Positions 1-19,362 of a stretch of DNA of 19,362 nt are shown here, one piece after another (positions within the stretch are counted from its first letter, which is position 1; every line of letters begins with the position of its first letter). Below the pieces are notes generated by a model. The model had not been told where the DNA came from, did no database searches, and saw only the letters and a list, made by a program, of their open reading frames with translations. The stretch covers positions 1 to 19,362 of IMG/VR virus record IMGVR_UViG_2695420739_000013; one strand, given 5' to 3'. Source of the DNA: a virus. Lineage: Duplodnaviria > Heunggongvirae > Uroviricota > Caudoviricetes. The translations under genes were made by a program, and so were the position numbers.

Positions 1-24
1 CTTGCAGTTGCCAGACCGCAAGGT

Positions 25-119
25 GTTTTAACAAATCAAAAGGGGTTTTAATAACTGGCTCAAAGCTGAAAGCTTTCCGGAACCCCCAGCCTAGCTGGGG
101 GTTTTCTGTGCACAAAAAA
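25..119. repeat. Left copy of a 95-bp perfect inverted repeat; partner at 19268-19362. Contains an 8-bp-stem palindrome (83-101) followed by TTTT, and the last codons plus a tandem TAATAA stop of a plus-strand ORF entering from the left edge.
   Basis: Seen in sequence: the reverse complement of 19268-19362 is identical to 25-119; the match breaks at position 120 (C versus a 7th A). Confidence 0.85.
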
Positions 120-3572: not shown

Positions 3573-6047
3573 TTAAAAATCAGCCTGACTCGGGATCAGT
3601 TTTTGCCAGATAACTGAAACGTATTTTGCCTGGTAACGGGCGTCATCAAGTGCATTATGGCGCTCACCTTCGAATGGAATAGCCGTTCTGGCATCGAAGT
3701 CTATGGCTTTCCCCAGCTCAACGATTGTGCGTACATCGCGATCGTTGTAGTAACGCCACGGGGAGGGGATCCCCTGCCGTTCGTATGAACGGCGCAAAAT
3801 CGTGTTGTCGAAGTTGGCTCCATTTCCCCAGACCTGAACAAAAAATTCACCGGAGTTTTCGTCGATAAATTCCCGCAATTGTAACAGTGCATCATCTAAC
3901 GGGATTTCATCGGTCATAATGGCAGATTGCGCTTCGCGTGATTGCTTAAGCCACCATTTAATGGTGTCCCGATCAATGACTCCGCCAGCAGTTTCCAGAT
4001 CGATAGTCTTACTAAATTCCGGTCCCATATCTCCGGTTTGCGGATCGAAAAATATTGCACCTATTGAGATGATCGGGGCATCAGGATTTTTTCCCATGGT
4101 TTCAAGGTCGATCATTAGATGGTCACACGTCCTGCTGGTGGATGTGATAACGTGATGACCGTTCACCTTAATTGAGTGATCTGCCGTCTCGCCAGTTTCA
4201 CTATCGCTGGCGTGGTCCTGAGCGCTGCCAGCATTCTCCTTGTGTGGATGTTCAGCGCCTTCCATTTTCTCCGAATCGTCTTCCTGAACTTCAACCTGGT
4301 TCTTGTCATCGAATGTTTCCTGGTATGTTGCGTCGCCCATCACCGCGCCACAATCAGGGCAGTTGCCGCCGCCGGTCTGACCGCAGGCGGTGCAGATTTT
4401 TTCCGGTTCCTGTTGCGCTACTGGTTCAGGTTGTTTCGTTTCTGGCTCGTTTTGTAACGCATTTGGGCTGTTTTGTTCCGCTTTCTGGCCGTTCTGTTCC
4501 GTTTCTTGCTGGTTCTGATTCACTGAATCGCGGGTTTCAATCCCCTTCACCCATTTCGGATCATTCGGGTCGCTAATCCCTGCAACAAATTCACCACGTG
4601 ATACAGCAAGCAACTTATTGGCGTCAGGCTGGCTGATATTGGCTGCCTGCATAATTTTGTTTACTTCGTCAGCGGTAACTTTTACCGGCTCTGGTTGTGC
4701 GATCGTGTCAGATGCACCAGTATTTTGTTGTGAACCTGAGTACGTGCCGTTTTTACGTGCGAAGTATTCCTCTTTTGTGATTTCCGTAGCTCCCAGGGCC
4801 AGTGCTTTTTCCAGACCAGAAAGTTTGTTTGCGCGACCGTATTTTTCGCCGTCCTTATCAGTGAAAAGGAAGTAGAACGGTCCCTCACGCTCTACAGATG
4901 GTTCGTCTTCCACTTCGCATTCGGTTTTTTCGTTGTCCGGCATTGCCGTTTCCACTGCATCAGTTTCTGGTACTGGTGACGGGAGAGTACCAGCTGTGCC
5001 CTGATTTGTTCCTTCGTCATCTTCAAACACGCCCTTGGTAGTCAGGTATTCAGTGATGTATTTGTTCAGTGCTACGGGATCTTTGTGAATGTCGATCGGA
5101 CGCTCACGGACAAGGCCAAAAATAGTCTGACGGTCGTAGCGAACGGCATCGGGTTGTTTGCGCATTGATGCGGAAATGCGCTTCCAGTCTTCGCGATCTT
5201 TGTCGATAACTTCATTTTTTGCCCAGCGATGGATGCTGCCGTCAATGTTTCCGGTATCAATATCGCCAGGCCAGAGAGCGTAGGCCAGTTCTTCATCCAG
5301 CGTTTTCCATGTCTGCTTGTATTCGCGACAAATGGCGGCAGTGACTGGGTTGATTTTTCCTGCTGAGTTTTCAGTGTTCTGTTGATTGACTCTGGCGCTG
5401 GCGAGATCAACAACAGACGTGTATTTTCCAGTCTCTTTGCGCTCTGCGTCCTGCCGTTTTTTCCAGTTACGTAATTCAGCCTGAATTTCGGGCCATTTGG
5501 CACCCGGATTACATTTGTGTTTAACCCATCCGATAGCGAACAGTTTGCGTTCCGGATACATAGCGTTAATTTCAGGCGTTTTCATCAGTGCTTCAACGAT
5601 ATGCCCGTCAAAGGTAGCAACGTCTTCCTGCAGTAATTCCTGCGCGTCAATCGCCATATCAACGGTGATGTTTTCACATGTACCGAACTTAACCAGGACC
5701 GCGTTCTGTACTTCAAGGGACAGCTTGTCAAAATTGACGTTCATCGGATCGGATTCTGGTTCGACCGGAATAAAGGAAGCGGATTCCTCATCCCAGCGGT
5801 TTTCCTGCATATATTCAGCATCCCAGGAATCGAGGGCAGGGCGGGGTATACCGGGTTTATCCTCGCAAACAAGAAATTTATAAGCGCAGTCCTGAGCAGC
5901 CGGATAATGTTCCAGGAATTGCCAGTGAAATTTTGCGCGGGCGCGACGTTCATCACCGGCTTCAATGGCAGTGGCTACAGCGACGGCACCTTCTTCCTTT
6001 ATTGCCTGTTCATCAGGAATAGCAGCGCAAATAAAGACCTTACTCAT
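3573..6047 (-). CDS. Large phage exonuclease with a C-terminal DEDDh 3'-5' exonuclease domain (the type often annotated exodeoxyribonuclease VIII-like in E. coli prophages)
   Basis: 824 aa. The C-terminus carries DnaQ-like Exo I (MIDLETMG), Exo II (GNGANFDNTIL) and Exo III (HNALDDARYQ) motifs. A central Cys4 zinc ribbon (CTACGQ...CPDCG) and an acidic/Gln-rich linker are visible. Confidence 0.8.
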   Translation of the reverse strand: MSKVFICAAIPDEQAIKEEGAVAVATAIEAGDERRARAKFHWQFLEHYPAAQDCAYKFLVCEDKPGIPRPALDSWDAEYMQENRWDEESASFIPVEPESDPMNVNFDKLSLEVQNAVLVKFGTCENITVDMAIDAQELLQEDVATFDGHIVEALMKTPEINAMYPERKLFAIGWVKHKCNPGAKWPEIQAELRNWKKRQDAERKETGKYTSVVDLASARVNQQNTENSAGKINPVTAAICREYKQTWKTLDEELAYALWPGDIDTGNIDGSIHRWAKNEVIDKDREDWKRISASMRKQPDAVRYDRQTIFGLVRERPIDIHKDPVALNKYITEYLTTKGVFEDDEGTNQGTAGTLPSPVPETDAVETAMPDNEKTECEVEDEPSVEREGPFYFLFTDKDGEKYGRANKLSGLEKALALGATEITKEEYFARKNGTYSGSQQNTGASDTIAQPEPVKVTADEVNKIMQAANISQPDANKLLAVSRGEFVAGISDPNDPKWVKGIETRDSVNQNQQETEQNGQKAEQNSPNALQNEPETKQPEPVAQQEPEKICTACGQTGGGNCPDCGAVMGDATYQETFDDKNQVEVQEDDSEKMEGAEHPHKENAGSAQDHASDSETGETADHSIKVNGHHVITSTSRTCDHLMIDLETMGKNPDAPIISIGAIFFDPQTGDMGPEFSKTIDLETAGGVIDRDTIKWWLKQSREAQSAIMTDEIPLDDALLQLREFIDENSGEFFVQVWGNGANFDNTILRRSYERQGIPSPWRYYNDRDVRTIVELGKAIDFDARTAIPFEGERHNALDDARYQAKYVSVIWQKLIPSQADF

Positions 6048-6142
6048 TTTGTTTTAACCTCATTACAGATTTCAGGGTGAACGAATCCCTGCCATTGCTG
6101 GCATTTTTAATCCGTTGGTATGGTGTTAATATGGCTGGAGGG

Positions 6143-6331
6143 TTATCCAGCCGGTGTTTCGTTATTCAGGTACAGCGATACTTTTTTTACCGGGAGGCAT
6201 TCACCAGAAATTTTTTGCTCGTCTCTTGCCTGGAGGCAGGATTCTTTACTGGCATAAATTCTGGTAATCACATTCTGTGATTCACCCGTTATAAGAAAAA
6301 CCGTCATCATCAGTGCAAATGCTGAAGTCAT
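6143..6331 (-). CDS. Small protein translationally coupled downstream of dicB (YdfD-like by position)
   Basis: 62-aa ORF whose ATG overlaps the dicB stop (ATGA). The YdfD assignment is by synteny with the K-12 Qin dicB operon only; the sequence itself was not recognised with confidence. Confidence 0.45.
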   Translation of the reverse strand: MTSAFALMMTVFLITGESQNVITRIYASKESCLQARDEQKISGECLPVKKVSLYLNNETPAG

Positions 6332-6516
6332 TGACGTTCTCCGAAAATACCAAGTTCAAGAAGAGCAATTCGGGAAAGTATGGAATTATCATTGAGCAGA
6401 TAAGGCTCATATTTCCTCATATTAATGGCATCTTCAGTAAACTCCCGGTTACTGAGCAGAACACCAATATCAAAACAACCTTCAGACGTATTAACGTTTG
6501 GTAATAACGTTTCCAT
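6328..6516 (-). CDS. dicB: Cell division inhibitor DicB (MinC-activating)
   Basis: Internal Met of the 97-aa track ORF gives 62 aa, METLLPNVNTSEGCFDIGVLLSNREFTEDAINMRK..., matching my recollection of K-12 DicB (MKTLLPNVNTSEGCFEIGV...). GAGGA Shine-Dalgarno 7 nt upstream. Lies directly downstream of dicF. Confidence 0.75.
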   Translation of the reverse strand: METLLPNVNTSEGCFDIGVLLSNREFTEDAINMRKYEPYLLNDNSILSRIALLELGIFGERQ

Positions 6517-6534
6517 TATCGCGTCCTCAACAAT

Positions 6535-6680
6535 GAATTTTGTGATGCGGTGCCTGGTGCCTCCAGGTGACGTTAACCAGTTAACAATTAACGCCGGATA
6601 CAGAGAATCCACCCATAACACTGTTTTTGGTTTTAACTGTTCCGCGTGCGCTCAGCCGCATTCACCGCATCACAAAATTC
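6535..6680. repeat. 18-19-bp perfect inverted repeat (6535-6552 GAATTTTGTGATGCGGTG / 6663-6680 CACCGCATCACAAAATTC) enclosing ~110 bp between dicF and dicB
   Basis: Seen in sequence. In the minus-strand dicB-operon transcript the arms would form a long-range stem immediately 3' of dicF. Confidence 0.6.
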
Positions 6681-6687
6681 ACTTTAA

Positions 6688-6743
6688 AAACGGCGGCAGA
6701 GCAGTCACGGAGTAAAACTGATACCGCCAAACGTCACCAGAAA
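6688..6743 (-). ncRNA. dicF: DicF small RNA (ftsZ-repressing sRNA of the dicB operon)
   Basis: The minus-strand sequence UUUCUGGUGACGUUUGGCGGUAUCAGUUUUACUCCGUGACUGCUCUGCCGCCG followed by U-run matches the K-12 DicF sequence as I recall it, differing at about one position. Confidence 0.75.
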
Positions 6744-7019
6744 ATTGATAACAGAGGGCGTTGCAGCGGGGTTGTCACTTAAGCGTATGGTCAACCTGAC
6801 AACCCGGTGTCCTCAACGGGGGAAGGAATAACCCCGCCATACTTACCGCCGCGCCATTTCGCGGGTTGCCACAACCGGAAGCGCACGGTCGAATTAAATT
6901 TAACGACACCGTACAGTGAGACGAACTTCGCCGTGCGCTTTCGTGTTGTGTGCCTGCTTTTAACCACGTCAGGCGAGGTGGTATCCTTCTTATCCCGAAT
7001 AACCAAGAAGGAAATCTAT

Positions 7020-7220
7020 ATGACTAAAGAAGAATTTGTCTCTTATATTTTTGATAAAACGGTTGAAATGTATGCCGCTACTTACGGGTCCTGTAATCCT
7101 CTGAATAAACCAGAGGGGAAAGATGATTTCGACAAAATTTACCGCTTCTTGGAGGACCGCTATATCAAAAGGTTAGAGGACGCAGGGATCAAATCCCCAG
7201 TGAAGTCACCATTGTCCTGA
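7020..7220 (+). CDS. Hypothetical small protein (66 aa), antisense to the dicB-operon direction
   Basis: ATG preceded by AAGGAAA 8 nt upstream; protein-like composition. It is convergent with, and overlaps by 32 bp, the 3' end of the minus-strand ORF 7189-7566, so only one of the two may be real. Confidence 0.3.
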   Translation: MTKEEFVSYIFDKTVEMYAATYGSCNPLNKPEGKDDFDKIYRFLEDRYIKRLEDAGIKSPVKSPLS

Positions 7221-7566
7221 GAACTTGCAGGACGTCATGATCGTAACTTCCATCCAAACCGCGACGGCAAATTGCTTCTCGTATTACCGGAAGCAGTTCG
7301 CTGGAAATCTCGGTGCATATTTCACCTGATAATACGCTTGGCTCAAGTGAGAATATTGGTGAACTTACGGTCTTGGTCTCGACAGTTTCAGAGTCAGTGC
7401 CAACATTATAAAGCTCAACGAAAGCGGTCTTGATTTTCCGGGCCAGATCTTTTGCTGGCTCGCTTGCAATATCTTTCCCGATTTCTCGCAGCACAGAATG
7501 CAATGTATGAGCTGCTGTTTTCTGTACATCAGACGGTAAATCTTTAAATTCCATCGTCAGCCTCAT
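7189..7566 (-). CDS. Hypothetical prophage early protein (dicB-operon position)
   Basis: 125-aa ORF coupled to the upstream ORF (ATGA overlap). No motif recognised. Confidence 0.5.
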   Translation of the reverse strand: MRLTMEFKDLPSDVQKTAAHTLHSVLREIGKDIASEPAKDLARKIKTAFVELYNVGTDSETVETKTVSSPIFSLEPSVLSGEICTEISSELLPVIREAICRRGLDGSYDHDVLQVLRTMVTSLGI

Positions 7567-7811
7567 CAGTCAGTGTTTCTGGCTAACCAGCAACGCGCGC
7601 CAGATCCGGTTTTAAACGTTTTGCTTTTGGTATATGTCATCGCGGTGAACGTACCGCCCTGGTTGGGGAACACGCCGTACACCAGAGATTCGTTGTTGCC
7701 AAGATCGATAGTATCCATGTTGACCTCATTTCCCCTTAACGCCGGGGTAGCGGAACTGTTTGCTGAGAACACCGTGCGGTGTCTTGATGGATCGTAATTT
7801 AGTTTTCTCAT
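7566..7811 (-). CDS. Hypothetical prophage early protein, first gene downstream of the repressor
   Basis: 81-aa ORF. Its start lies within an operator-like inverted repeat. No motif recognised. Confidence 0.5.
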   Translation of the reverse strand: MRKLNYDPSRHRTVFSANSSATPALRGNEVNMDTIDLGNNESLVYGVFPNQGGTFTAMTYTKSKTFKTGSGARCWLARNTD

Positions 7812-10614: not shown

Positions 10615-10720
10615 GTTGAGAAGTAATTTTTACCGGGAGGAAATTTATGGAGACTGTTTTTGACGCACTGAAAGCAATGGGAAAAGCCACATCCATAGAA
10701 CTTGCTGCGCGCGTGAAGAA

Positions 10721-10921
10721 GTGCTGAACGAACTATGGGAACTGAAAAAGGCTGGTTTTGTTGATAAAAGCGCGTACACCTGGCGTGTGGCTGATAACAA
10801 CGTTCAGCAGGAACAGCCAGCGCAGGCAGAACTGCCGGAAGAAACCACCACAATGAGTGAAGTTATGCAGCGCATACTGGCATTTTATCAGGGAAATGTT
10901 CGATATTTTAGACGTTACTAG
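10721..10921 (+). CDS. Hypothetical winged-helix-like small protein; possibly the 3' part of a frameshifted gene beginning at ATG 10647
   Basis: A 26-codon ORF (10647-10727, good GGGAGG Shine-Dalgarno) and this GTG-initiated ORF lie in different frames and join into one plausible ~92-aa protein across a -1 shift at 10719-10723. Confidence 0.35.
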
Positions 10922-11289
10922 ATTAAAGAGCATTAGTTCAGATGTGAATTGACATTGTGTGGCACAGGGTTGGGCTAGCGTGGGGGTTTGCTTTGTGTAA
11001 GAAACGGATGCTCTGCAAATTACTACTAATGCTTAATGTTAGTCTGATCTGCTCCCCGATGATTAATACACCGCTATGTTAGTAATGTCTGTAGATCGCT
11101 GTGTGTTGCATCCATCGGTTGACCCCACAGTCCAAACCAGACTGTCAGCTTTGATTCGATTCTATCTACTCAACCTGTCAGGTAATGTCTGAGCTAATAC
11201 ACAGAGTACGGCTATCGCGAACTTTAAGCTAGGTATCTGATACGCACCGTTCACTTGTTTGTACTTCTTGCACTGACTAGCTATCGTGC

Positions 11290-11322
11290 GCAGTTATTTA
11301 TAGGTAATCTCCAGTGTATAAT
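11290..11322 (+). promoter_or_regulatory. Candidate sigma70 promoter for the 281-aa island gene
   Basis: TATAAT at 11317-11322 with a weak -35 about 17 bp upstream, then AGGAGG and ATG at 11361. Pattern-based only. Confidence 0.3.
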
Positions 11323-11360
11323 TTTCCAACTTATGGGAGATTGTAAAACAGGAGGAATAT

Positions 11361-12206
11361 ATGAGGAAAAAATCGTTTGGACGTTGCCCGTTTGATTTCG
11401 ACGAAGATGTAAAAAAAATAGCCGCGATAAATAAATATATCCATGCGAAATTTGAGAGGCATAAAAATAAAATAGATAACCTAAAGGGGGTGGAACAAAA
11501 ATTGATGGTTTTACATTACTTTAATGTACTGAATGAACTTAGTAATCAGGCTATATTTTCTTTGAGTACCGGAGCCTTTTCAGCATCGGAAGTATTAACT
11601 AGAGTTATAATGGAACAGGCTGCCAATCAATTTTATATAGCAATTGATGATGGAAAAAATGCACAAGCATTACTCAAGGGTAGTAAGAAATTAGTTCATA
11701 GTAATGGGAAACGGTGGCTGGAGTGTTTAAAATCCAAAGAAATGACTAATCCAGCAGCAGATGAAAGGATTCGTATCGGAAAAGAGCTAACTGATATGTT
11801 TAATAGATTGTGGCCAAATACACCTGAATATCCTGGAACCAAAAAGCTTTTCGAAGTAATTGGCTGGGAAACACACTATCATGCCTATTACGTCCCTCTT
11901 TGTGATTCAATACATACATTCTCTGATGATATGGCAAATATAGTATCTCTATATAATGCAATCCAAAGCGATAAAACTACTGCTATCGAACTCACTCTTG
12001 CAGTTAAACAAGAAAATAAACGGCTGGCAATTTATAATGTCGTAATTGCTATTGGCCTGCGGTGTGAGGCCTTAGTAAATGTATTTAACTCTTTAGGTTA
12101 TCGAGATATTATAACTGAAATGGCGCCAACAATAGATGCAGTCAACCAGATTATAATTCGATATGATGATTTCGAACATTCCAGAATTTTTATTGTCAAT
12201 AATTAA
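11361..12206 (+). CDS. Hypothetical protein (281 aa), no recognisable catalytic motif; first gene of the AT-rich accessory island
   Basis: Long ORF with a perfect AGGAGG Shine-Dalgarno 7 nt upstream. Visibly AT-rich and Lys/Asn/Ile-rich, contrasting with the flanking prophage genes. Confidence 0.75.
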   Translation: MRKKSFGRCPFDFDEDVKKIAAINKYIHAKFERHKNKIDNLKGVEQKLMVLHYFNVLNELSNQAIFSLSTGAFSASEVLTRVIMEQAANQFYIAIDDGKNAQALLKGSKKLVHSNGKRWLECLKSKEMTNPAADERIRIGKELTDMFNRLWPNTPEYPGTKKLFEVIGWETHYHAYYVPLCDSIHTFSDDMANIVSLYNAIQSDKTTAIELTLAVKQENKRLAIYNVVIAIGLRCEALVNVFNSLGYRDIITEMAPTIDAVNQIIIRYDDFEHSRIFIVNN

Positions 12207-12259
12207 TTGGCAGAATTCGTACATGCACAACAACTAGTTATAGTTGACCTATTTCGCTC

Positions 12260-12828
12260 TTGAGAGACAACCATACTCAAATCTTCCACATTGCAGGAGA
12301 TTTGAGTATGAATACGTCACCGAGGAACAAAGACAGTATCATAGGCCCAAAAAGACCACTTCAGATATCTCATATCTGGGGGCTCCAAATCCGGCTTGAA
12401 CTGGAAGGTAAAACGCGTGATTTAGCTCGGTTTCAAGCAGAGCTACGGTGCTGCAACTGAAAAACTGGCAGTCCTATCCAATTTGAGATAACCAAAGGGA
12501 CAAGAGAAGCTGTTTCTGCATTGATAAAGCTTGGCAATTTACGCAGTAAAGACTACTTGTTCCGATCTCGGGTCGGTACTAACCAACACATATCAATCCT
12601 GCAATATAACCGAATCTTTCATAGGGGGGAGAAAAGCTTGGTCTCGAAGATTCGCTTTACAGCACACATTCCATGAGAAGAACAAAACCTTGCCTTGTCT
12701 GCAAGAAAACTAAGAATCTCCGGGTGATCCAACTTCCGTTGGGCCATAAGAAAACGGAAAGCACAGTTCGTTATCTGGGTATAGAAGTTGATGATGCATT
12801 AGAGATCTCTGAATCGATCGAAGTCTAA
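12260..12828 (+). pseudogene. Decayed tyrosine recombinase/integrase: C-terminal catalytic domain only, with an in-frame TGA and a frameshift
   Basis: The stitched translation ..KTGSPIQFEITKGTREAVSAL..DYLFRSRVGTNQHISILQYNRIFHRG/GEKLGLEDSLYSTHSMRRTKP..LGHKKTESTVRYLGIEVDDAL.. carries the H-x-x-R and LLGH...Y motifs of tyrosine recombinases. Stop at 12458-12460; frame change within a G6 run at 12624-12629; no N-terminal domain. Confidence 0.6.
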
Positions 12829-13240
12829 AGCTGTCAGGGCTGCAGCAGCAGCCCTGTGCCAAGAGCGTACCAATATATGTCTCAAAAAATTGGGCACAGG
12901 TCAATATCAATACCAACAACTCTGATTGTGCTCATGTGATTTACTCCTGTAGAAAACGCAGACAGTAAAAATATTTCACTGGCTGCTTCAGACAGGGCGT
13001 CCATCATATCATTACATAACAATAGCGGGGCACGATATCTAGACATGCAGCAACGATGGACATAGAATGAGTACAATCAAAAGCATGTTTAACTACTTTA
13101 ATTTAAAAATCTTAGAATCTTAGGTGTAGAGTTCAATACTTAGTTACATACCCTTTTGAAAGCATCACAAATCATAACTATGAGCCTGTTAAAGGCATAG
13201 GTATTCTTAATTAAGAGCATTTTAATGAGAGAAAAATAAA

Positions 13241-14614
13241 ATGAAAAGACTATATTATACCCATCATGATAGTCGAACCTTAAAACTTGCTATAGAAGGT
13301 GATGTTTCTGATAATGCGAATATTTTTACAGTAATTGTAGGTAAAAATGGCGTTGGAAAAAGCAGATTGTTATCTCAGATTGCTAAAGACTGTATTCAAG
13401 ATGTTCATTTCTTGAAAACTTTTAATCCATTATTTGACAGAGAAATAACACCAAAGTTAATTGCCGTATCTACCAGCCCATTCGATAAATTCCCTCCAGG
13501 GCGTAGGTCATTAAATCACCAAAGGAAAGAAAATAATTATCGCTATGTGGGTATGCGTGGAGAAGGCCCCTTCGGCGTATCAAATGCCGTATCCCTTTTA
13601 TCTTCAGCAGCGAGAGGTTGGCTAGAGAAACTTGCTTATTCAGAAAATCCTGCAAATTTACTCGATGTTTTTCATTCTATTGATTTTGAGCCCCATATAG
13701 AGTTTGTATTTAAACCAACTTACAACGGACCGGACACTCCTGACTATAACTTCATTGGTGTATATTCAGATGAGATATTAACGGAAGTTAAGGAGTTATA
13801 TTTAAAATACAATATAAAAATTGACAGGAAGAATATTGAGAGTCTCTTAAAGTTAAACTCCGAATCACGTCATGATATTTACGAAGCACTGGTTGAAATT
13901 AATCGATTTGAACCTGAACGTAGGGCTGTAACCTTGTCAGTCGATTTTACCAATGGTGAAACATTGGTTGGCTCGACTTATGCGAATAATTATTTTTCTA
14001 GATCAATTCTTAAACTTATGAACGCTGGCTTCATGAGATTGATGGATATGCGACTCATAAAAAAAAGCTATGGTCCCATGTCACTTAAACGTGCGAGCTC
14101 GGGAGAACAATGTTTATTAGTGATGTTGCTTGGAATTGCAGGGCATATAACTGATGGTTCTATAATATTAATTGATGAACCGGAAATAAGCTTGCATCCT
14201 CGATGGCAGGAAGAGTTTATCATTATGTTAACAAAAGCATTTTTAACTTACTCAGGTTGTCAATTCATAATTGCAACTCATTCACCACAAATAATATCCA
14301 ATTTGCCGAATAAAGGTTGTTATATAACATCTTTGTCGAAAAGTTATCTTTATAAAGCAAAATACTTTAGCAACCGGTCTGCAGACTATCAACTTGCGGA
14401 ACTATTTGATGCCCCTGGCATTATGAATGAATACATTGCCAGGTTAGCTTTCAATTTACTTTCAAAAGTTAAGACTGCTAAGTTAGTAACAGATGATAAT
14501 TGGCGTGAATTAAAACAACTCCAACTTCTCCTTGAAAACGTTAATAGTAATGACCCTATTAATGAACTCGTAAATTCCGTATCTCAGGTGTGTGAAATTT
14601 ATGCCAAAAATTAA
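13241..14614 (+). CDS. ABC-type (AAA_15/AAA_21-like) ATPase, Septu PtuA-like
   Basis: 457 aa. Walker A GKNGVGKS (residues 34-41), ABC-signature-like SSGEQ, Walker B IILIDEPE, D-loop SLHP, H-loop ATHSP. AT-rich. Its 3' end overlaps the following HNH gene. Confidence 0.85.
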   Translation: MKRLYYTHHDSRTLKLAIEGDVSDNANIFTVIVGKNGVGKSRLLSQIAKDCIQDVHFLKTFNPLFDREITPKLIAVSTSPFDKFPPGRRSLNHQRKENNYRYVGMRGEGPFGVSNAVSLLSSAARGWLEKLAYSENPANLLDVFHSIDFEPHIEFVFKPTYNGPDTPDYNFIGVYSDEILTEVKELYLKYNIKIDRKNIESLLKLNSESRHDIYEALVEINRFEPERRAVTLSVDFTNGETLVGSTYANNYFSRSILKLMNAGFMRLMDMRLIKKSYGPMSLKRASSGEQCLLVMLLGIAGHITDGSIILIDEPEISLHPRWQEEFIIMLTKAFLTYSGCQFIIATHSPQIISNLPNKGCYITSLSKSYLYKAKYFSNRSADYQLAELFDAPGIMNEYIARLAFNLLSKVKTAKLVTDDNWRELKQLQLLLENVNSNDPINELVNSVSQVCEIYAKN

Positions 14615-15236
14615 AAATCCAATTAGATTCAGCGCAGAGTCATTAGATATTATTGAGAAAAAATTGTCTTCTCCAGATTTTAAGCATACCAACTGGGGAG
14701 ATGATGATTTGCAAGTTCTCCGTGCAGAAATTAGAAATCATTACAGAGAAGAACAAAAGCTAGAATGTGTATATTGTCATGAGCCTATTGGGGTAAGAGC
14801 TGCACAAGCTGCTCCTATAGAGCATATTGTGCCAAAATCTCAATATCTATGTTTTATTTTTGAACCTAAGAATCTATGTGTAGTATGTCCTGACTGCAAT
14901 GAATTCAAAGGTAAAAATGAAGTGTTATTTGAACCCGTAATAAATGGGGGGCGGCGCAAAAACTATCCAACTGCATCTGCATCATTTCGCATCGTTCATC
15001 CACATATAGATGATTATGAGATGCATATTATAAAAGCAAATCGTGTTTATGTGGACAAAACACCTAAAGGGCACTATACCATTGGAATATGTAAACTAAA
15101 TAGATTTTTTCATTATTTTGGGATGTGTGATGAATTTGTTAATGATGCAAAAATTGCTGAGACAAATGAAAATTTTTTCAAAAAAGGTAGTATTACTACT
15201 AATGAATTATTGGATGATGACATTCATTTGATTTAA
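14601..15236 (+). CDS. HNH endonuclease, Septu PtuB-like
   Basis: ATG at 14601 (track ORF from GTG 14592) overlaps the ATPase gene by 14 bp. HNH-type motifs CVYCH...EHIVPKS...CVVCPDCN (two CxxC pairs flanking the catalytic His). Confidence 0.85.
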   Translation: MPKIKNPIRFSAESLDIIEKKLSSPDFKHTNWGDDDLQVLRAEIRNHYREEQKLECVYCHEPIGVRAAQAAPIEHIVPKSQYLCFIFEPKNLCVVCPDCNEFKGKNEVLFEPVINGGRRKNYPTASASFRIVHPHIDDYEMHIIKANRVYVDKTPKGHYTIGICKLNRFFHYFGMCDEFVNDAKIAETNENFFKKGSITTNELLDDDIHLI

Positions 15237-15549
15237 CTATGAATTATTATATTGTAAAGTAATCAGGTAAGATATGTTAGACAGTGAGACTATTGCCTTA
15301 CAGAATTCATTATTCTTATGGATCGCCTTTCTGACTGATTTCATATTGGCGGGGTAACGGGAGTTAAGTAGAATGGCTGCGGGTGCTTGAGGCTATCTGT
15401 CTCAGGCATGAACACCAAAGGCAGATAGAGAAAAGCCCCAGTTAACATTACGCGTCCTGCAAGACGCTTAACATTAATCTGAGGCCAATTTCATGCTAGA
15501 CACATGTAGGTTAGCCTCTTACGTGCCGGAAGGCAAGGAGAAGCAGGCT

Positions 15550-15705
15550 ATGAAGCAGCAAAAGGCGATGTTAATCGCCCTGATCGTCATCTGTTTAACC
15601 GTCATAGTGACGACACTGGTAACGAGGAAAGACCTCTGCGAGGTACGAATCCGAACCGGCCAGACGGAGGTCGCTGTCTTCACAGCTTACGAACCTGAGG
15701 AGTAA
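15550..15705 (+). CDS. hokD: Hok/Gef-family type I toxin (HokD/RelF-like), 51 aa
   Basis: MKQQKAMLIALIVICLTVIVTTLVTRKDLCEVRIRTGQTEVAVFTAYEPEE matches K-12 HokD as I recall it, differing at about one residue. The in-frame upstream extension from 15493 is what the ORF track reports as 70 aa. Confidence 0.85.
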   Translation: MKQQKAMLIALIVICLTVIVTTLVTRKDLCEVRIRTGQTEVAVFTAYEPEE

Positions 15706-15774
15706 GAGACCCGGCGAGGGAGAAATCCCTCGCCACCTCTGATGTGGCAGGCATCCTCAACGCACCCGCACTTA

Positions 15775-15805
15775 ACCCGCTTCGGCGGGTTTTTGTTTTT
15801 ATTTT
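15775..15805 (+). terminator. Rho-independent terminator downstream of hok
   Basis: Seen in sequence: CCCGC-ttcg-GCGGG followed by TTTTTGTTTTTATTTT. Confidence 0.5.
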
Positions 15806-15921
15806 CAACGCGTTTGAAGTTCTGGACGGCGCCGGAATAGAATCAAAAATACTTAAGTAGCGCGCAGGGATAAGAGGGATGGTCCCTTAAAGGGGAGAGC
15901 TAATTATCCGGAAGGATTCTG

Positions 15922-16173
15922 ATGATGAACATCGAAGAACTGCGTAAAATTTTTTGTGAAGATGGCCTCTATGCTGTGTGCGTTGAAAATGGAAATCTTG
16001 TTAGTCATTACCGCATTATGTGTTTGCGAAAGAATGGGGCTGCGTTAATTAATTTTGTGGATGGTCGAGTGACAGACGGATTTATCTTGCGCGAAGGTGA
16101 GTTTGTCACTTCATTACAGGCACTGAAAGAGATCGGAATAAAAGCAGGCTTTTCAGCTTTTGCAGAAGAATAA
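15922..16173 (+). CDS. Small prophage protein, Rem-like by position (Qin order hokD-rem-ydfU)
   Basis: 83-aa ORF with a GGAAGGA Shine-Dalgarno. The assignment rests on size and synteny, not on confident sequence recognition. Confidence 0.55.
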   Translation: MMNIEELRKIFCEDGLYAVCVENGNLVSHYRIMCLRKNGAALINFVDGRVTDGFILREGEFVTSLQALKEIGIKAGFSAFAEE

Positions 16174-16239
16174 ACTCATCTACAATCTTGCGCGGGGCTG
16201 AACTCCCGCTGAGTAACACCGTGCCACCGGAGAAAACCG

Positions 16240-16518
16240 ATGGCACGCAACGTAAAATATTACAATTCTGATAATTCGCCCGTTCTTGCCTGCACGCACG
16301 AGCGGTATTCTCACGCATTCAAGTCTGAATGGTTCCAACACCCTCCATGTACTGAAGAGCAGGCTGAATGGATAATTCAGTGTTACCGCAGGCGCGGATA
16401 CGAGGTTAAGAAAGCCCTTAGTCTCGACTACCGTCACTGGATAATCTCCGTCAGGCTTCCTTACTCTGAACGCCCACCGCGTCCGTCTCGCACATTCCAG
16501 CAACGCATCTGGAGGTAA
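16240..16518 (+). CDS. Hypothetical prophage protein (92 aa)
   Basis: ORF with a GGAG Shine-Dalgarno, directly abutting the downstream DUF968 gene. No motif recognised. Confidence 0.45.
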   Translation: MARNVKYYNSDNSPVLACTHERYSHAFKSEWFQHPPCTEEQAEWIIQCYRRRGYEVKKALSLDYRHWIISVRLPYSERPPRPSRTFQQRIWR

Positions 16519-16519
16519 C

Positions 16520-17569
16520 GTGCGGGTATTACTTCGACCTGTTCTGGTACCGGAACTCGGGCTGGTGATCGTTAAGCCGGGCCGTGAATCCATGCCAGTA
16601 TTCCACAATACCCGGGTATTGATGGAGCCGGAACCGAAAAGCATGCGTAATCTGCCGTCCGGGGTCGTTCCTGCCGTTCGCCAGCCGCTGGAGGAAGACA
16701 AAACATTGCTGCCGTTTTTCAGTAACGCACGGGTGATTCGTGCTGCTGGTGGTGCAGGTGCATTGTCTGACTGGCTGTTGCGCCATATTAAATCCTGCCA
16801 GTGGCCACACGGCGATTATCATCACAGCGAAACTGTCATTCACCGTTATGGTACCGGCGCAATGGTGTTGTGCTGGCACTGCGACAACCAGCTGCGTGAC
16901 CAGACATCCGAATCACTCGAGCAACTTGCTCATCAAAACCTGTCAGCATGGATGATTGACGTCATCGGTCACGCAATAAGCGGTACGCAGGAGCGTGAAT
17001 TATCTTTGGCTGAATTATCCTGGTGGGCGGTCCGCAATCAGGTGGCGGACGCGCTACCGGAAGCGGTATTACGTCGTTCGCTGGGGGTGCGTGCGGAAAA
17101 AATCCGCTCAATGTACCGTGAAAGCGACATCGTGCCGGGAGAGCAGACCGCCACCAGCATACTGAAGCAGCGCACAAAAAATATTGCGTTACTGCCTGAC
17201 GTCCACCAGCAACAGAACCCACCACAGGAAAAGACGGTGGTCAGCATTGCCGTTGATCCTGAGTCTCCGGAATCTTTCATGAAACGACCTAAACGTCGCC
17301 GCTGGGTTAACGAGAAATACACACGCTGGGTGAAGACTCAGCCGTGTGCGTGTTGTGGTAAGCCAGCCGACGATCCCCATCACCTGATTGGTCATGGTCA
17401 GGGCGGAATGGGGACAAAATCTCACGATATTTTCACGCTACCGCTGTGTCGGGAGCATCACAACGAGCTTCATGCGGATCCGCTGGCGTTCGAAGAAAAG
17501 CATGGCTCTCAGGTTGATTTAATTTTTCGTTTTCTTGATCACGCCTTTGCAACTGGCGTGCTTGGGTAA
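16520..17569 (+). CDS. DUF968-family prophage protein (YdfU-like) with a C-terminal Cys/His-rich HNH-like region
   Basis: 349 aa, GTG start. C-terminus ..CACCGKPADDPHHLIGHG...LPLCREHHNELH.. Position upstream of rusA and Q matches Qin-type prophages. Confidence 0.7.
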   Translation: MRVLLRPVLVPELGLVIVKPGRESMPVFHNTRVLMEPEPKSMRNLPSGVVPAVRQPLEEDKTLLPFFSNARVIRAAGGAGALSDWLLRHIKSCQWPHGDYHHSETVIHRYGTGAMVLCWHCDNQLRDQTSESLEQLAHQNLSAWMIDVIGHAISGTQERELSLAELSWWAVRNQVADALPEAVLRRSLGVRAEKIRSMYRESDIVPGEQTATSILKQRTKNIALLPDVHQQQNPPQEKTVVSIAVDPESPESFMKRPKRRRWVNEKYTRWVKTQPCACCGKPADDPHHLIGHGQGGMGTKSHDIFTLPLCREHHNELHADPLAFEEKHGSQVDLIFRFLDHAFATGVLG

Positions 17570-18334: not shown

Positions 18335-18364
18335 TGACCATATACATTGTCCGGGGCTATATTC
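18335..18364 (+). promoter_or_regulatory. Candidate Q-dependent late promoter (pR'-like)
   Basis: TTGACC at 18335-18340, an 18-bp spacer, then TATATT at 18359-18364, immediately downstream of Q. Confidence 0.45.
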
Positions 18365-18425
18365 CTCGCGCGTCAGCAAAATCTGGCGTCGGGATTGGAA
18401 CCCCGGATATTCAACCGCGACAGAC

Positions 18426-18450
18426 ACACGCCGCGAGCGTGTTTTTTATT
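18426..18450 (+). terminator. tR'-like intrinsic terminator ending a short leader transcript (Q antitermination target)
   Basis: Seen in sequence: ACACGC-cgcga-GCGTGT then TTTTTTATT, about 60-80 nt downstream of the candidate late promoter. Confidence 0.5.
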
Positions 18451-18611
18451 GTCGTAAGCACACGCACATCTGAATAATGGTGGGGCGTATGGGGGAGCTG
18501 AAAGGCTCGCCGGTTGGTTGATCCGGTAGTTCCAACCCTGTACGTCTCACCACCCAATGATTGGAACCTGACGGTGGTGATAGTTAAATCCATCAACCAG
18601 AGGGCGTTATC

Positions 18612-19273: not shown

Positions 19274-19362
19274 GTGCACAGAAAACCCCCAGCTAGGCTG
19301 GGGGTTCCGGAAAGCTTTCAGCTTTGAGCCAGTTATTAAAACCCCTTTTGATTTGTTAAAAC
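19268..19362. repeat. Right copy of the 95-bp perfect inverted repeat (partner 25-119); truncated by the window end
   Basis: Seen in sequence: exact reverse complement of 25-119. The match reaches the final base of the window, so the repeat may be longer. Confidence 0.85.

What the first reader, a model, noticed from the sequence alone, without database searches (positions are those of the whole stretch)
11361..12206. Orphan 281-aa island protein with no recognisable domain
A long ORF with a perfect AGGAGG ribosome-binding site and markedly AT-rich, Lys/Asn/Ile-rich composition. It is the first gene of the accessory island and I could not assign it to any family by eye. Genes of this kind in prophage defense islands are frequently single-gene abortive-infection or other anti-phage effectors, and it might also be an accessory partner of the downstream ATPase/HNH pair. 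I considered and rejected a reverse-transcriptase (retron) reading: there is a YDD tripeptide near the C-terminus but no other RT motifs.
Basis: inference. Interest (0 to 1): 0.6.

Follow-up and report, generated by a model that had tools for sequence, protein, structure and literature searches.

The report
DUF5677 prophage cargo gene, candidate defence
The ORF is a real, conserved gene from an already catalogued but uncharacterised protein family (DUF5677); it sits as swappable cargo beside a small recombinase in prophage slots that elsewhere hold proven anti-phage genes, so it is a reasonable but untested defence candidate and not a partner of the neighbouring Septu system.

Summary
The 281-codon ORF at 11361-12206 is real. 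It has an AGGAGG site 5 nt upstream, 35% GC, dN/dS of 0.22-0.33 against diverged alleles, and a chance expectation of 3e-5 per window. It is neither an orphan nor domain-less: it matches Pfam DUF5677 above threshold and phrog_4167 over its full length, and RefSeq already names it. It occurs in 57 of 5426 complete E. coli genomes, with relatives in Buttiauxella, Morganella and Pseudomonas. A confident AlphaFold model (pLDDT 93.6) is all-helical and has no whole-fold match. Only a sub-bundle of about 110 residues resembles HEPN domains, and the query lacks the HEPN R-x4-6-H motif. The gene is not linked to Septu, because PtuA/PtuB lie beside it only in this one island. It is a self-contained promoter-plus-gene unit (11044-~12250) to the left of a minimal 200-aa tyrosine recombinase, which is a pseudogene here. 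That recombinase occurs in 869 E. coli genomes flanked by interchangeable cargo, including PD-T7-1 (in the same prophage slot), PD-T7-5, HEC-08, DRT1 and Septu. The best reading is a stand-alone candidate defence effector. Its function is untested here, and the one published test of a distant DUF5677 gene showed no protection.

The parts
11044..11360 (+). Conserved non-coding leader that travels with the ORF. It contains a ~70-nt element (about 11131-11201) with two CTGTCAG repeats that recurs at other accessory-gene junctions.
   Evidence: The left end of the shared block is at 11044 in all three contexts that retain the whole cassette: this lambdoid prophage, the S88 P2-like prophage and the Buttiauxella Tn3 transposon. 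The leader is always in the same orientation and directly abuts the ORF in 56 genomes. Core element. There is no Rfam hit and no significant RNA fold (z = -0.11).
11316..11321 (+). Candidate -10 hexamer TATAAT of a cassette-borne promoter (inferred).
   Evidence: The block ATTTATAGGTAATCTyCAGTGTATAAT is invariant in four cassettes that otherwise differ by about 10%. The consensus scan did not call it because the -35 is weak. No transcription data are available.
11350..11355 (+). Shine-Dalgarno sequence AGGAGG, 5 nt upstream of the ATG.
   Evidence: Other alleles read AGGAGA or GGGGAA.
11361..12206 (+). DUF5677 / phrog_4167 protein gene (281 aa), encoding a soluble all-alpha protein.
   Evidence: Conserved residues: R81 (57 of 57), E85, N89, W119, P158, F164, Y173, H185, D190, N193, plus acidic E77, E170, D182, E189 and E218.
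12254..12861 (+). Recombinase unit: the block shared at 88-92% nucleotide identity with recombinase loci in E. coli whatever the flanking cargo. It includes a downstream GC hairpin at about 12833-12856.
   Evidence: One search gives the shared coordinates against L025, L026 and L027. One search finds the recombinase in 869 of 5426 genomes.
12308..12828 (+). Pseudogene of the minimal (200-aa) tyrosine recombinase. It has an internal deletion of about 80 nt, frameshifts and stop codons.
   Evidence: Three-frame translation; alignment gaps against intact copies; the RefSeq note 'frameshifted; internal stop'. The S88 copy hits Pfam Phage_integrase at 3.9e-17.
13241..15236 (+). Neighbour that is not part of the unit: Septu PtuA (13241-14614) and PtuB (14592-15236), independent cargo to the right of the recombinase.
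   Evidence: PADLOC PtuA PDLC00283 at 1.2e-165 and PtuB PDLC00325 at 1.1e-83. Both are absent from every other DUF5677 locus.

Best explanation
The ORF encodes a soluble, all-helical protein of about 32 kDa from the DUF5677 / phrog_4167 family. It is carried on a self-contained unit of leader, promoter and gene (11044-~12250). That unit is one of many interchangeable cargo modules found next to a minimal 200-aa tyrosine recombinase. Here the recombinase sits in the accessory slot of a Rac-type lambdoid prophage, between the replication genes and hok/sok, and it has decayed to a pseudogene. The most likely role is a stand-alone anti-phage or anti-mobile-element effector, expressed from its own promoter in the lysogen and acting without a partner. 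The conserved polar and acidic cluster lies on two helices (E77/R81/E85/N89 and D182/H185/E189/D190/N193, with Y173, E170 and E218). It suggests an enzyme with a metal- or substrate-binding pocket, built partly on a HEPN-like four-helix bundle. I infer that this enzyme attacks a nucleic acid or nucleotide during infection. Shown: the gene is real and under purifying selection; it belongs to the family; the fold is all-helical; it is independent of Septu; it stays intact where the recombinase has decayed; and it shares its type of position with validated defence genes. Inferred: the promoter, expression in the lysogen, defence activity, enzymatic nature and substrate.
Against: There is no experimental evidence for this protein. 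The only published test of a DUF5677 ORF (a Bacillota homologue, constitutively expressed in E. faecalis, six phages) was not among the five ORFs with antiphage activity, and the family is absent from the main text of the published version. No PADLOC or NCBIfam model matches any of the 57 family members. Two Pseudomonas loci (L007, L008) show no obvious mobile or defence neighbours. The HEPN resemblance covers only about 110 residues of a promiscuous fold. The query has Q, not H, at the R-x4-H position, and no HEPN family matches by sequence. Guilt by association cannot distinguish defence from anti-defence or other accessory functions.
Confidence: 0.45

Rival explanations
1. It is a prophage accessory ('moron') gene with a role other than defence, for example an anti-defence factor, an addiction or maintenance function, or a host-fitness or regulatory protein. 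On this view it shares hotspots with defence genes only because those slots tolerate any cargo.
For: P2 and other prophage hotspots also carry non-defence cargo such as partition systems and toxins (PMC9122126). The tested DUF5677 homologue was not among the ORFs that showed antiphage activity. There is no match to any defence model. Several recombinase-flanking genes are also unclassified.
Against: Where the neighbours of the recombinase can be classified, they are overwhelmingly defence genes. There is no DNA-binding, secretion or membrane signal. The conserved charged cluster points to catalysis, not a structural or regulatory role.
Confidence: 0.3
2. It is an accessory factor of the adjacent site-specific recombinase, controlling directionality, regulation or target choice. 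That would explain why DUF5677 genes recur next to serine recombinases in Bacillota and tyrosine recombinases in Proteobacteria.
For: It is adjacent to the minimal tyrosine recombinase in E. coli and Buttiauxella, and, at only 35% protein identity, in P. fluorescens. It is strongly enriched and predicted to be co-transcribed with small serine recombinases.
Against: The recombinase occurs in 869 E. coli genomes and the ORF in only 57, so the recombinase does not need it. Six of the eight genome loci from other species have no such recombinase nearby. The ORF remains intact under purifying selection where the recombinase is a pseudogene or a 35-aa remnant. In RADS loci many unrelated cargo types occupy the same position. 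The leader is never inverted and has no flanking inverted repeats.
Confidence: 0.08
3. It is a third component or sensor of the downstream Septu (PtuA/PtuB) system.
For: It has the same orientation and lies in the same low-GC island. The three genes co-occur in 19 E. coli genomes at >=99% identity.
Against: Those 19 genomes carry one near-identical island. A recombinase pseudogene and about 1 kb separate the ORF from PtuA. PtuA and PtuB match their profiles over the full length. Neither PtuA nor PtuB is found in any other DUF5677 locus. The left and right cargoes of the recombinase vary independently.
Confidence: 0.03
4. It is a spurious or decaying ORF in AT-rich DNA.
For: It lies in an island that contains a pseudogene. 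There is a 1-nt indel near its 3' end relative to other strains.
Against: dN/dS is 0.22-0.33. Chance expectation is 3e-5. Full-length homologues exist down to about 16% identity with conserved motifs. The structure model is very confident. The indel changes only the last 3-4 residues.
Confidence: 0.01

Closest known systems
Pfam PF18928 (DUF5677) / PHROGs phrog_4167
   Same: The ORF is a member by profile score: 37.4 bits against a cut-off of 27.1, and E = 1e-175 over the full length for the phrog. All 57 aligned relatives hit DUF5677 at E <= 5, and 56 at E <= 0.01.
   Different: Nothing differs, but both families are annotated 'unknown function', so membership tells us nothing about mechanism. 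The Pfam model covers only residues 49-195. This sub-family of 270-300 aa adds an N-terminal helix and a C-terminal helical bundle.
HEPN superfamily domains (e.g. AF0298 2hsb, sacsin HEPN 3o10, TT1696 1ufb, ST0689 1wol)
   Different: The query has Q86, so the R-x4-6-H dyad is absent. The residue after R is hydrophobic, whereas I recall it being polar in HEPN families. No HEPN family matches by sequence. Foldseek finds no significant whole-fold match. The invariant residues (E85, N89, H185, D190, N193) have no HEPN counterpart that I could test.
Recombinase-associated defence loci (RADS; small serine recombinases as markers of antiphage systems, PLoS Biol 2026, PMC13552941 and its preprint)
   Same: A small site-specific recombinase is flanked by interchangeable defence cargo. 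DUF5677 itself was found enriched at such loci. The same paper reports that tyrosine-recombinase baits also flag defence genes in Bacteroidota.
   Different: Here the marker is a 200-aa catalytic-domain-only tyrosine recombinase of Enterobacterales and Pseudomonas, not a serine recombinase. It lies inside prophage, transposon and island slots, and cargo occurs on both sides of it.
Single-gene E. coli defence systems PD-T7-1 and PD-T7-5 (Vassallo et al. 2022) and candidate HEC-08
   Same: They occupy the same kind of position beside the same recombinase. PD-T7-1 is in the same Rac-type prophage slot. All are single genes.
   Different: There is no detectable sequence or profile similarity (hhalign probability <= 0.2%). 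PD-T7-1 is experimentally validated, whereas the DUF5677 gene is not.
Accessory slot between tail-fibre assembly and tail sheath genes of P2-like prophages (the Z/fun position of P2; the P2 map is from my own knowledge)
   Same: The ~92%-identical allele of this gene sits in exactly that slot in 5 of 5 E. coli genomes examined. A defence hotspot within the P2 tail genes is described in PMC13586616.
   Different: In this window the gene is in a lambdoid prophage slot, which shows that the unit moves between phage types.

Membership tests
Pfam DUF5677 (PF18928) / phrog_4167 | Profile HMM score at or above the curated gathering threshold | tested here: met
   37.4 bits against 27.1, E = 3.4e-9, residues 49-195. 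phrog_4167 at E = 1.3e-175, residues 1-276 of 280.
Pfam DUF5677 (PF18928) / phrog_4167 | Family-wide conserved motifs present in the query (S-R-V-x-x-E-x-x-x-N and S-D-S-V-H-x-x-S-E-D-x-x-N) | tested here: met
   The query carries R81, E85, N89, D182, S183, H185, D189/D190 and N193. Column frequencies are 47-57 of 57.
HEPN superfamily | Four-helix up-and-down bundle fold | tested here: inconclusive
HEPN superfamily | Conserved R-x4-6-H catalytic motif | tested here: not met
   The query reads R81-V-I-M-E-Q86. H at position 86 occurs in only 19 of 57 relatives. The C-terminal R267-x5-H273 of the query is not conserved.
HEPN superfamily | Sequence-profile match to a HEPN-clan family or a solved HEPN protein | tested here: not met
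   No such Pfam hit for any of 57 members, even at E <= 5. A PDB profile search at E <= 10 returned no HEPN protein.
Septu system (as a third component) | Conserved genomic co-occurrence with PtuA/PtuB across lineages | tested here: not met
   PtuA/PtuB lie next to the gene only in the one island lineage. They are absent from L002-L010 and from the neighbourhoods.
Septu system (as a third component) | Match to a Septu protein profile | tested here: not met
   No PADLOC hit for the ORF at E <= 0.1.
Retron / reverse transcriptase | RT (RVT) domain | tested here: not met
   No RT family at E <= 0.1 in Pfam, and none in PADLOC or NCBIfam. The fold is all-alpha.
Catalogued anti-phage defence proteins (PADLOC-DB 2.0.0) | Match to any defence-protein model | tested here: not met
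   Zero families for the query. Only three stray single-member hits appear among 57 relatives.
Recombinase-associated defence cargo (RADS-like) | Recurrent adjacency to a small site-specific recombinase whose other neighbours are defence genes | tested here: met
   Literature enrichment with P = 2e-92.
Recombinase-associated defence cargo (RADS-like) | Demonstrated protection against phage | not testable with these tools
   The only published test, of a distant homologue, was not among the ORFs with antiphage activity.
Toxin-antitoxin pair | Conserved adjacent small partner gene | tested here: not met
   The neighbours differ in every lineage. The 38-codon leader ORF lacks an SD sequence, shows mostly non-synonymous change and is absent from L003.
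fimS-type invertible promoter switch (FimB/FimE-like recombinase plus an invertible leader) | Leader flanked by inverted repeats and found in both orientations | tested here: not met
   No inverted repeats of 8 bp or more bracket the leader. Orientation is the same in all 56 genomes.

The most novel reading that the evidence does not exclude
DUF5677 proteins are a previously unrecognised family of single-protein anti-phage effectors. On this reading they have a new all-helical two-bundle fold and a non-HEPN catalytic pocket (R81/E85/N89 with H185/D190/N193). They would be spread as plug-in cargo of a minimal 200-aa tyrosine recombinase that marks an undescribed, exchangeable defence platform. 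That platform is present in about 16% of complete E. coli genomes and spans lambdoid prophages, P2-like prophages, transposons and plasmids.
Probability: 0.3. Interest if true: 0.6.

Novelty: new member of a known kind. Interest (0 to 1): 0.4.

Why it matters
The ORF itself is an already catalogued DUF, so finding it is not new. If it proves to be a defence gene, it would give a function to DUF5677 / phrog_4167, and the all-helical fold with no solved counterpart would point to a new effector chemistry. The context may be more useful than the gene. A catalytic-domain-only tyrosine recombinase, found in 869 of 5426 complete E. coli genomes, sits between interchangeable cargo that includes Septu, PD-T7-1, PD-T7-5, HEC-08 and DRT1. 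Its many unclassified neighbours (this gene, a 326-aa, a 476-aa and a 756-aa protein, ETEC_3214, a CBS-domain protein) form a short, testable list of new defence candidates. The result also removes a false lead: this Septu system does not have a third component.

Tried and rejected
(1) Septu partnership: rejected, because there is no co-occurrence outside one island. (2) Reverse transcriptase or retron: rejected. (3) A fimS-like invertible promoter driven by the FimB/E-sized recombinase: rejected, because the leader is never inverted in 56 genomes and has no bracketing inverted repeats. (4) Structured RNA in the 317-nt leader: no Rfam match at gathering score or at E <= 1, and the fold z-score is -0.11. 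(5) Precise att-like repeats at the cassette ends: no direct or inverted 8-mers are shared between the left and right ends, and the 13-nt repeat pair 10960/12849 lies outside the block shared with other contexts. (6) A hidden small partner ORF: none is credible. (7) Homology to the alternative cargo proteins PD-T7-1, PD-T7-5 and HEC-08: none. (8) Canonical HEPN RNase: the motif is absent from the query. (9) Whole-fold matches: Foldseek against PDB and BFVD gave nothing significant. The AFDB libraries were unavailable, so no AFDB comparison was made. (10) Domain fusions or informative names in the 5.8-billion-protein collection: none were found, and the word-indexed search recovered only 6-15 relatives. 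(11) tblastn against 50,697 sequenced phage genomes gave no match, so the gene was found in integrated elements but in none of these deposited phage genomes. (12) A profile scan of genome contigs with the 57-sequence alignment failed for lack of a conserved 7-10-residue stretch, so a 6-sequence alignment was used instead. (13) I could not obtain model coordinates, so the spatial clustering of the conserved residues is inferred from helix periodicity and was not measured.

Full report
OBSERVATION. AGGAGG lies at 11350-11355, five bases before the start codon. The ORF is 34.8% G+C (27.3% at third codon positions). It opens a low-GC stretch (32-43% in 500-nt windows from about 11000 to 15500) set in a prophage of roughly 44-57% GC. 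Ile, Lys and Asn are abundant, though Ala and Leu are equally common. An open run of 281 codons at this composition has a probability of 8.5e-10 per start, or about 3e-5 for the whole window on both strands. Against three alleles that are 88-89% identical at the protein level, dN/dS is 0.33, 0.22 and 0.23. It is therefore a real gene under purifying selection. This allele lacks one T in a T-run at 12187 compared with EPEC E2348/69. That changes only the last 3-4 residues, which have low model confidence.

IT IS NOT AN ORPHAN AND NOT DOMAIN-LESS. The protein matches Pfam PF18928 (DUF5677) above the gathering score: 37.4 against 27.1 bits, E = 3.4e-9, residues 49-195. It matches PHROGs family phrog_4167 ('unknown function') over its full length at E = 1.3e-175. 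RefSeq already annotates the identical gene as 'DUF5677 domain-containing protein', for example WP_001227887.1 in E. coli O127:H6 E2348/69. The gene is present in 57 of 5426 complete E. coli genomes, 19 at >=99% identity and 38 at about 92%. An exhaustive HMMER search of 1.84 billion representative proteins found 66 clusters at E <= 1e-3, nearly all 270-300 aa. All 57 aligned members hit DUF5677 at E <= 5, and 56 at E <= 0.01. No NCBIfam or PADLOC model matches it or its relatives. tblastn against 50,697 sequenced phage genomes found nothing.

THE ISLAND IS A MOSAIC, AND THE ORF IS NOT A SEPTU COMPONENT. The downstream pair matches full-length Septu profiles: PtuA PDLC00283 at E = 1.2e-165 and PtuB PDLC00325 at 1.1e-83. 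Between the ORF and PtuA lies a broken tyrosine-recombinase gene (12308-12828). It has an internal deletion of about 80 nt, frameshifts and stops, and RefSeq marks it 'frameshifted; internal stop'. All 19 genomes with the whole island carry near-identical copies of it. In every other DUF5677 locus examined, PtuA/PtuB are absent. In E. coli S88, IHE3034, PCN033, S1-INA-02-B and an NCBI assembly (L022), the ~92% allele sits in a P2-like prophage between the tail-fibre assembly gene and the tail sheath gene, followed by the same recombinase. That slot corresponds to P2's Z/fun position; the P2 gene map is from my own knowledge. PMC13586616 describes a defence hotspot within the P2 tail genes.

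TWO SEPARABLE UNITS. Comparison across contexts resolves two blocks. The DUF5677 unit runs from 11044 to about 12250. Its left end is the same in this lambdoid prophage, the P2-like prophage and a Buttiauxella Tn3-family transposon. It carries a 317-nt leader containing an invariant ATTTATAGGTAATCTyCAGTGTATAAT block, with TATAAT at 11316-11321, which is probably its promoter (inferred). The recombinase unit runs from 12254 to 12861. It is shared at 88-92% nucleotide identity with loci that have entirely different genes on both sides. The recombinase is a 200-aa catalytic-domain-only enzyme (Pfam Phage_integrase at 3.9e-17) and occurs in 869 of 5426 E. coli genomes, fifteen times more than the ORF.

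WHAT ELSE SITS BESIDE THAT RECOMBINASE. In strain WCHEC035125 the same Rac-type prophage slot holds the recombinase flanked by PD-T7-1 (E = 7e-157) and a 326-aa unknown protein. The flanks of that slot match window 10856-11019 and 15309-16600. A third version of the slot (ydaV ... hok) has a recombinase pseudogene between a 756-aa unknown protein and an LA2681-family HEPN protein. Other loci carry HEC-08/DUF3644 (1e-173), PD-T7-5 (8e-102), Drt1b (6e-97), dynamin-family proteins with weak LeoBC similarity, DUF4145, and several unknowns. PD-T7-1 is experimentally validated, and its discoverers noted nearby integrases for several of their systems (PMC9519451). None of these cargo proteins resembles DUF5677 (hhalign probability <= 0.2%). 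So the ORF occupies a position that, where it can be classified, is typically filled by anti-phage genes.

WIDER CONTEXT OF THE FAMILY. More distant homologues appear as single genes with no conserved partner. One is the first cargo gene of a Tn7-like transposon, next to an MmeI-type restriction-modification enzyme. One lies beside a NikA/MobC mobilisation gene and a CBASS SMODS+SLATT pair. One lies beside the same type of recombinase, DUF6119 and an OLD-family ATPase. Others lie after a RES toxin pair, beside a PLD-like nuclease and a zeta-like kinase, after RhuM and DUF7079, in a prophage early region after cI/cro, and in a T4SS island. Two Pseudomonas loci have no evident mobile context. 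The small recombinase recurs next to a homologue of only 35% identity in P. fluorescens. Independently, a preprint on recombinase-associated defence systems found DUF5677 strongly enriched beside small serine recombinases in Bacillota, with 25 instances and a corrected P of 2e-92. The cloned DUF5677 ORF was not among the five ORFs that showed antiphage activity against six E. faecalis phages, and the family is not mentioned in the main text of the published version.

IS THE PROTEIN A RECOMBINASE COFACTOR? This is unlikely. The recombinase is far commoner than the ORF. Most distant homologues lack it. The ORF stays intact where the recombinase is a pseudogene (this window), a 35-aa remnant (L022) or truncated (IHE3034). 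I also tested a fimS-like invertible promoter, because the recombinase is the size of FimB/FimE and the leader is the size of fimS. The leader is never inverted in 56 genomes and has no bracketing inverted repeats.

MOST LIKELY MECHANISM. The best-supported reading (confidence about 0.45) is a stand-alone defence-type effector. On this reading it is expressed from its own promoter in the lysogen and acts through an enzymatic pocket formed by the conserved E/R/E/N and D/H/E/D/N helix faces on a partly HEPN-like scaffold, probably against a nucleic acid or nucleotide during infection. Gene reality, family membership, fold class, independence from Septu and persistence without the recombinase are shown. 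Promoter use, defence activity, catalysis and substrate are inferred. The main rival (about 0.3) is a non-defence accessory function that merely shares permissive slots.

NOVELTY AND SCORE. The gene is a new member of a known but uncharacterised family that is already annotated in RefSeq, Pfam and PHROGs, so the finding as written is ordinary. Two results add value. Septu partnership can be ruled out. The island is organised around a minimal tyrosine recombinase that marks exchangeable defence cargo in about 16% of complete E. coli genomes. The general idea that recombinases mark defence loci is already published (PMC13552941). Interest is 0.4.

Noticed in passing
window 12254-12861 (pseudogene 12308-12828); intact copies in L002 13287-13871, L025/L026/L027 4501-5103: A minimal 200-aa, catalytic-domain-only tyrosine recombinase is present in 869 of 5426 complete E. 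coli genomes. It sits between interchangeable cargo (Septu, PD-T7-1, PD-T7-5, HEC-08, DRT1, dynamin-like, an LA2681-family HEPN protein, DUF4145 and many unknowns) in lambdoid prophages, P2-like prophages, a Tn3 transposon, a plasmid and tRNA-linked islands. The same Rac-type slot (replication genes ... hok) exists in at least three cargo versions. It looks like a tyrosine-recombinase counterpart of the published serine-recombinase defence marker.
   Followed up: partly
window about 11131-11201 (inside the leader 11044-11360); copies at L011 3001-3055, L012 3001-3069, L023 4001-4064, L024 4001-4069: A non-coding core of about 70 nt (CAAAGCAGACTGTCAG...CCTGTCAGGTCAAGTCTGAGCTAATACA, with two CTGTCAG repeats) recurs at 77-90% identity at other accessory-gene junctions. 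These include a spot next to an 877-aa AAA ATPase after a prophage replication gene, a spot just downstream of a VbhA antitoxin in two islands, and a spot upstream of essD in about 800 E. coli genomes. It also occurs on 60 plasmids of Klebsiella, Pantoea, Salmonella, Yersinia and others. There is no Rfam match and no significant RNA fold. Its function is unknown; it may be a junction or regulatory element.
   Followed up: partly
window 12272-12284 / 12298-12310: A perfect 13-nt inverted repeat (CATACTCAAATCT ... AGATTTGAGTATG) with a 13-nt spacer overlaps the ribosome-binding site and ATG of the recombinase pseudogene. It could be a translational hairpin or a protein-binding site. I did not check its conservation rigorously.
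   Followed up: no
window 11076-11192 (+): A 38-codon ATG ORF in the leader stays open in the S88 and Buttiauxella cassettes. It has 4 amino-acid changes from about 6 nucleotide differences, no Shine-Dalgarno sequence, and its 5' half is missing from the L003 cassette. It is probably not a gene.
   Followed up: partly
window 13241-15236: A two-gene Septu system. PtuA (457 aa) and PtuB (214 aa, HNH) overlap by 23 nt. Both match full-length PADLOC profiles.
   Followed up: yes
window 15381-15555 and 15493-15705: A hok/sok-type type I toxin-antitoxin locus (Rfam sok at 117 bits; hokD in the E2348/69 annotation) forms the right border of the variable slot. The left border is a frameshifted DUF1627 fragment after the replication P gene (about 10648-10921).
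   Followed up: partly
window 6691-6742 (-), 18357-18557 (+), 1-103 (-), 19284-19362 (+): Other Rfam hits in the prophage are DicF, then isrK and the C4 antisense RNA with its a1/b1 targets. STnc490 matches are cut off at both window ends, in opposite orientations.
   Followed up: no
L002 4999-6078 (E. coli S88 P2-like prophage): A 'GTP pyrophosphokinase' (RelA/SpoT-homologue-like) gene is inserted on the opposite strand between the tail/virion-morphogenesis genes and the baseplate genes of the same P2-like prophage. It is another likely accessory or defence insertion.
   Followed up: no
L015 and L017 (metagenomic Tn7-like elements), genes at about 5857-7613 and 8974 onwards: The DUF5677 homologue is the first cargo gene after the TnsA/TnsB/TnsC-like genes. 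It is followed by a conserved three-gene block that includes a DUF4325 protein, and then by an MmeI-type methyltransferase-nuclease. This is a compact defence cargo array on a Tn7-like transposon.
   Followed up: no
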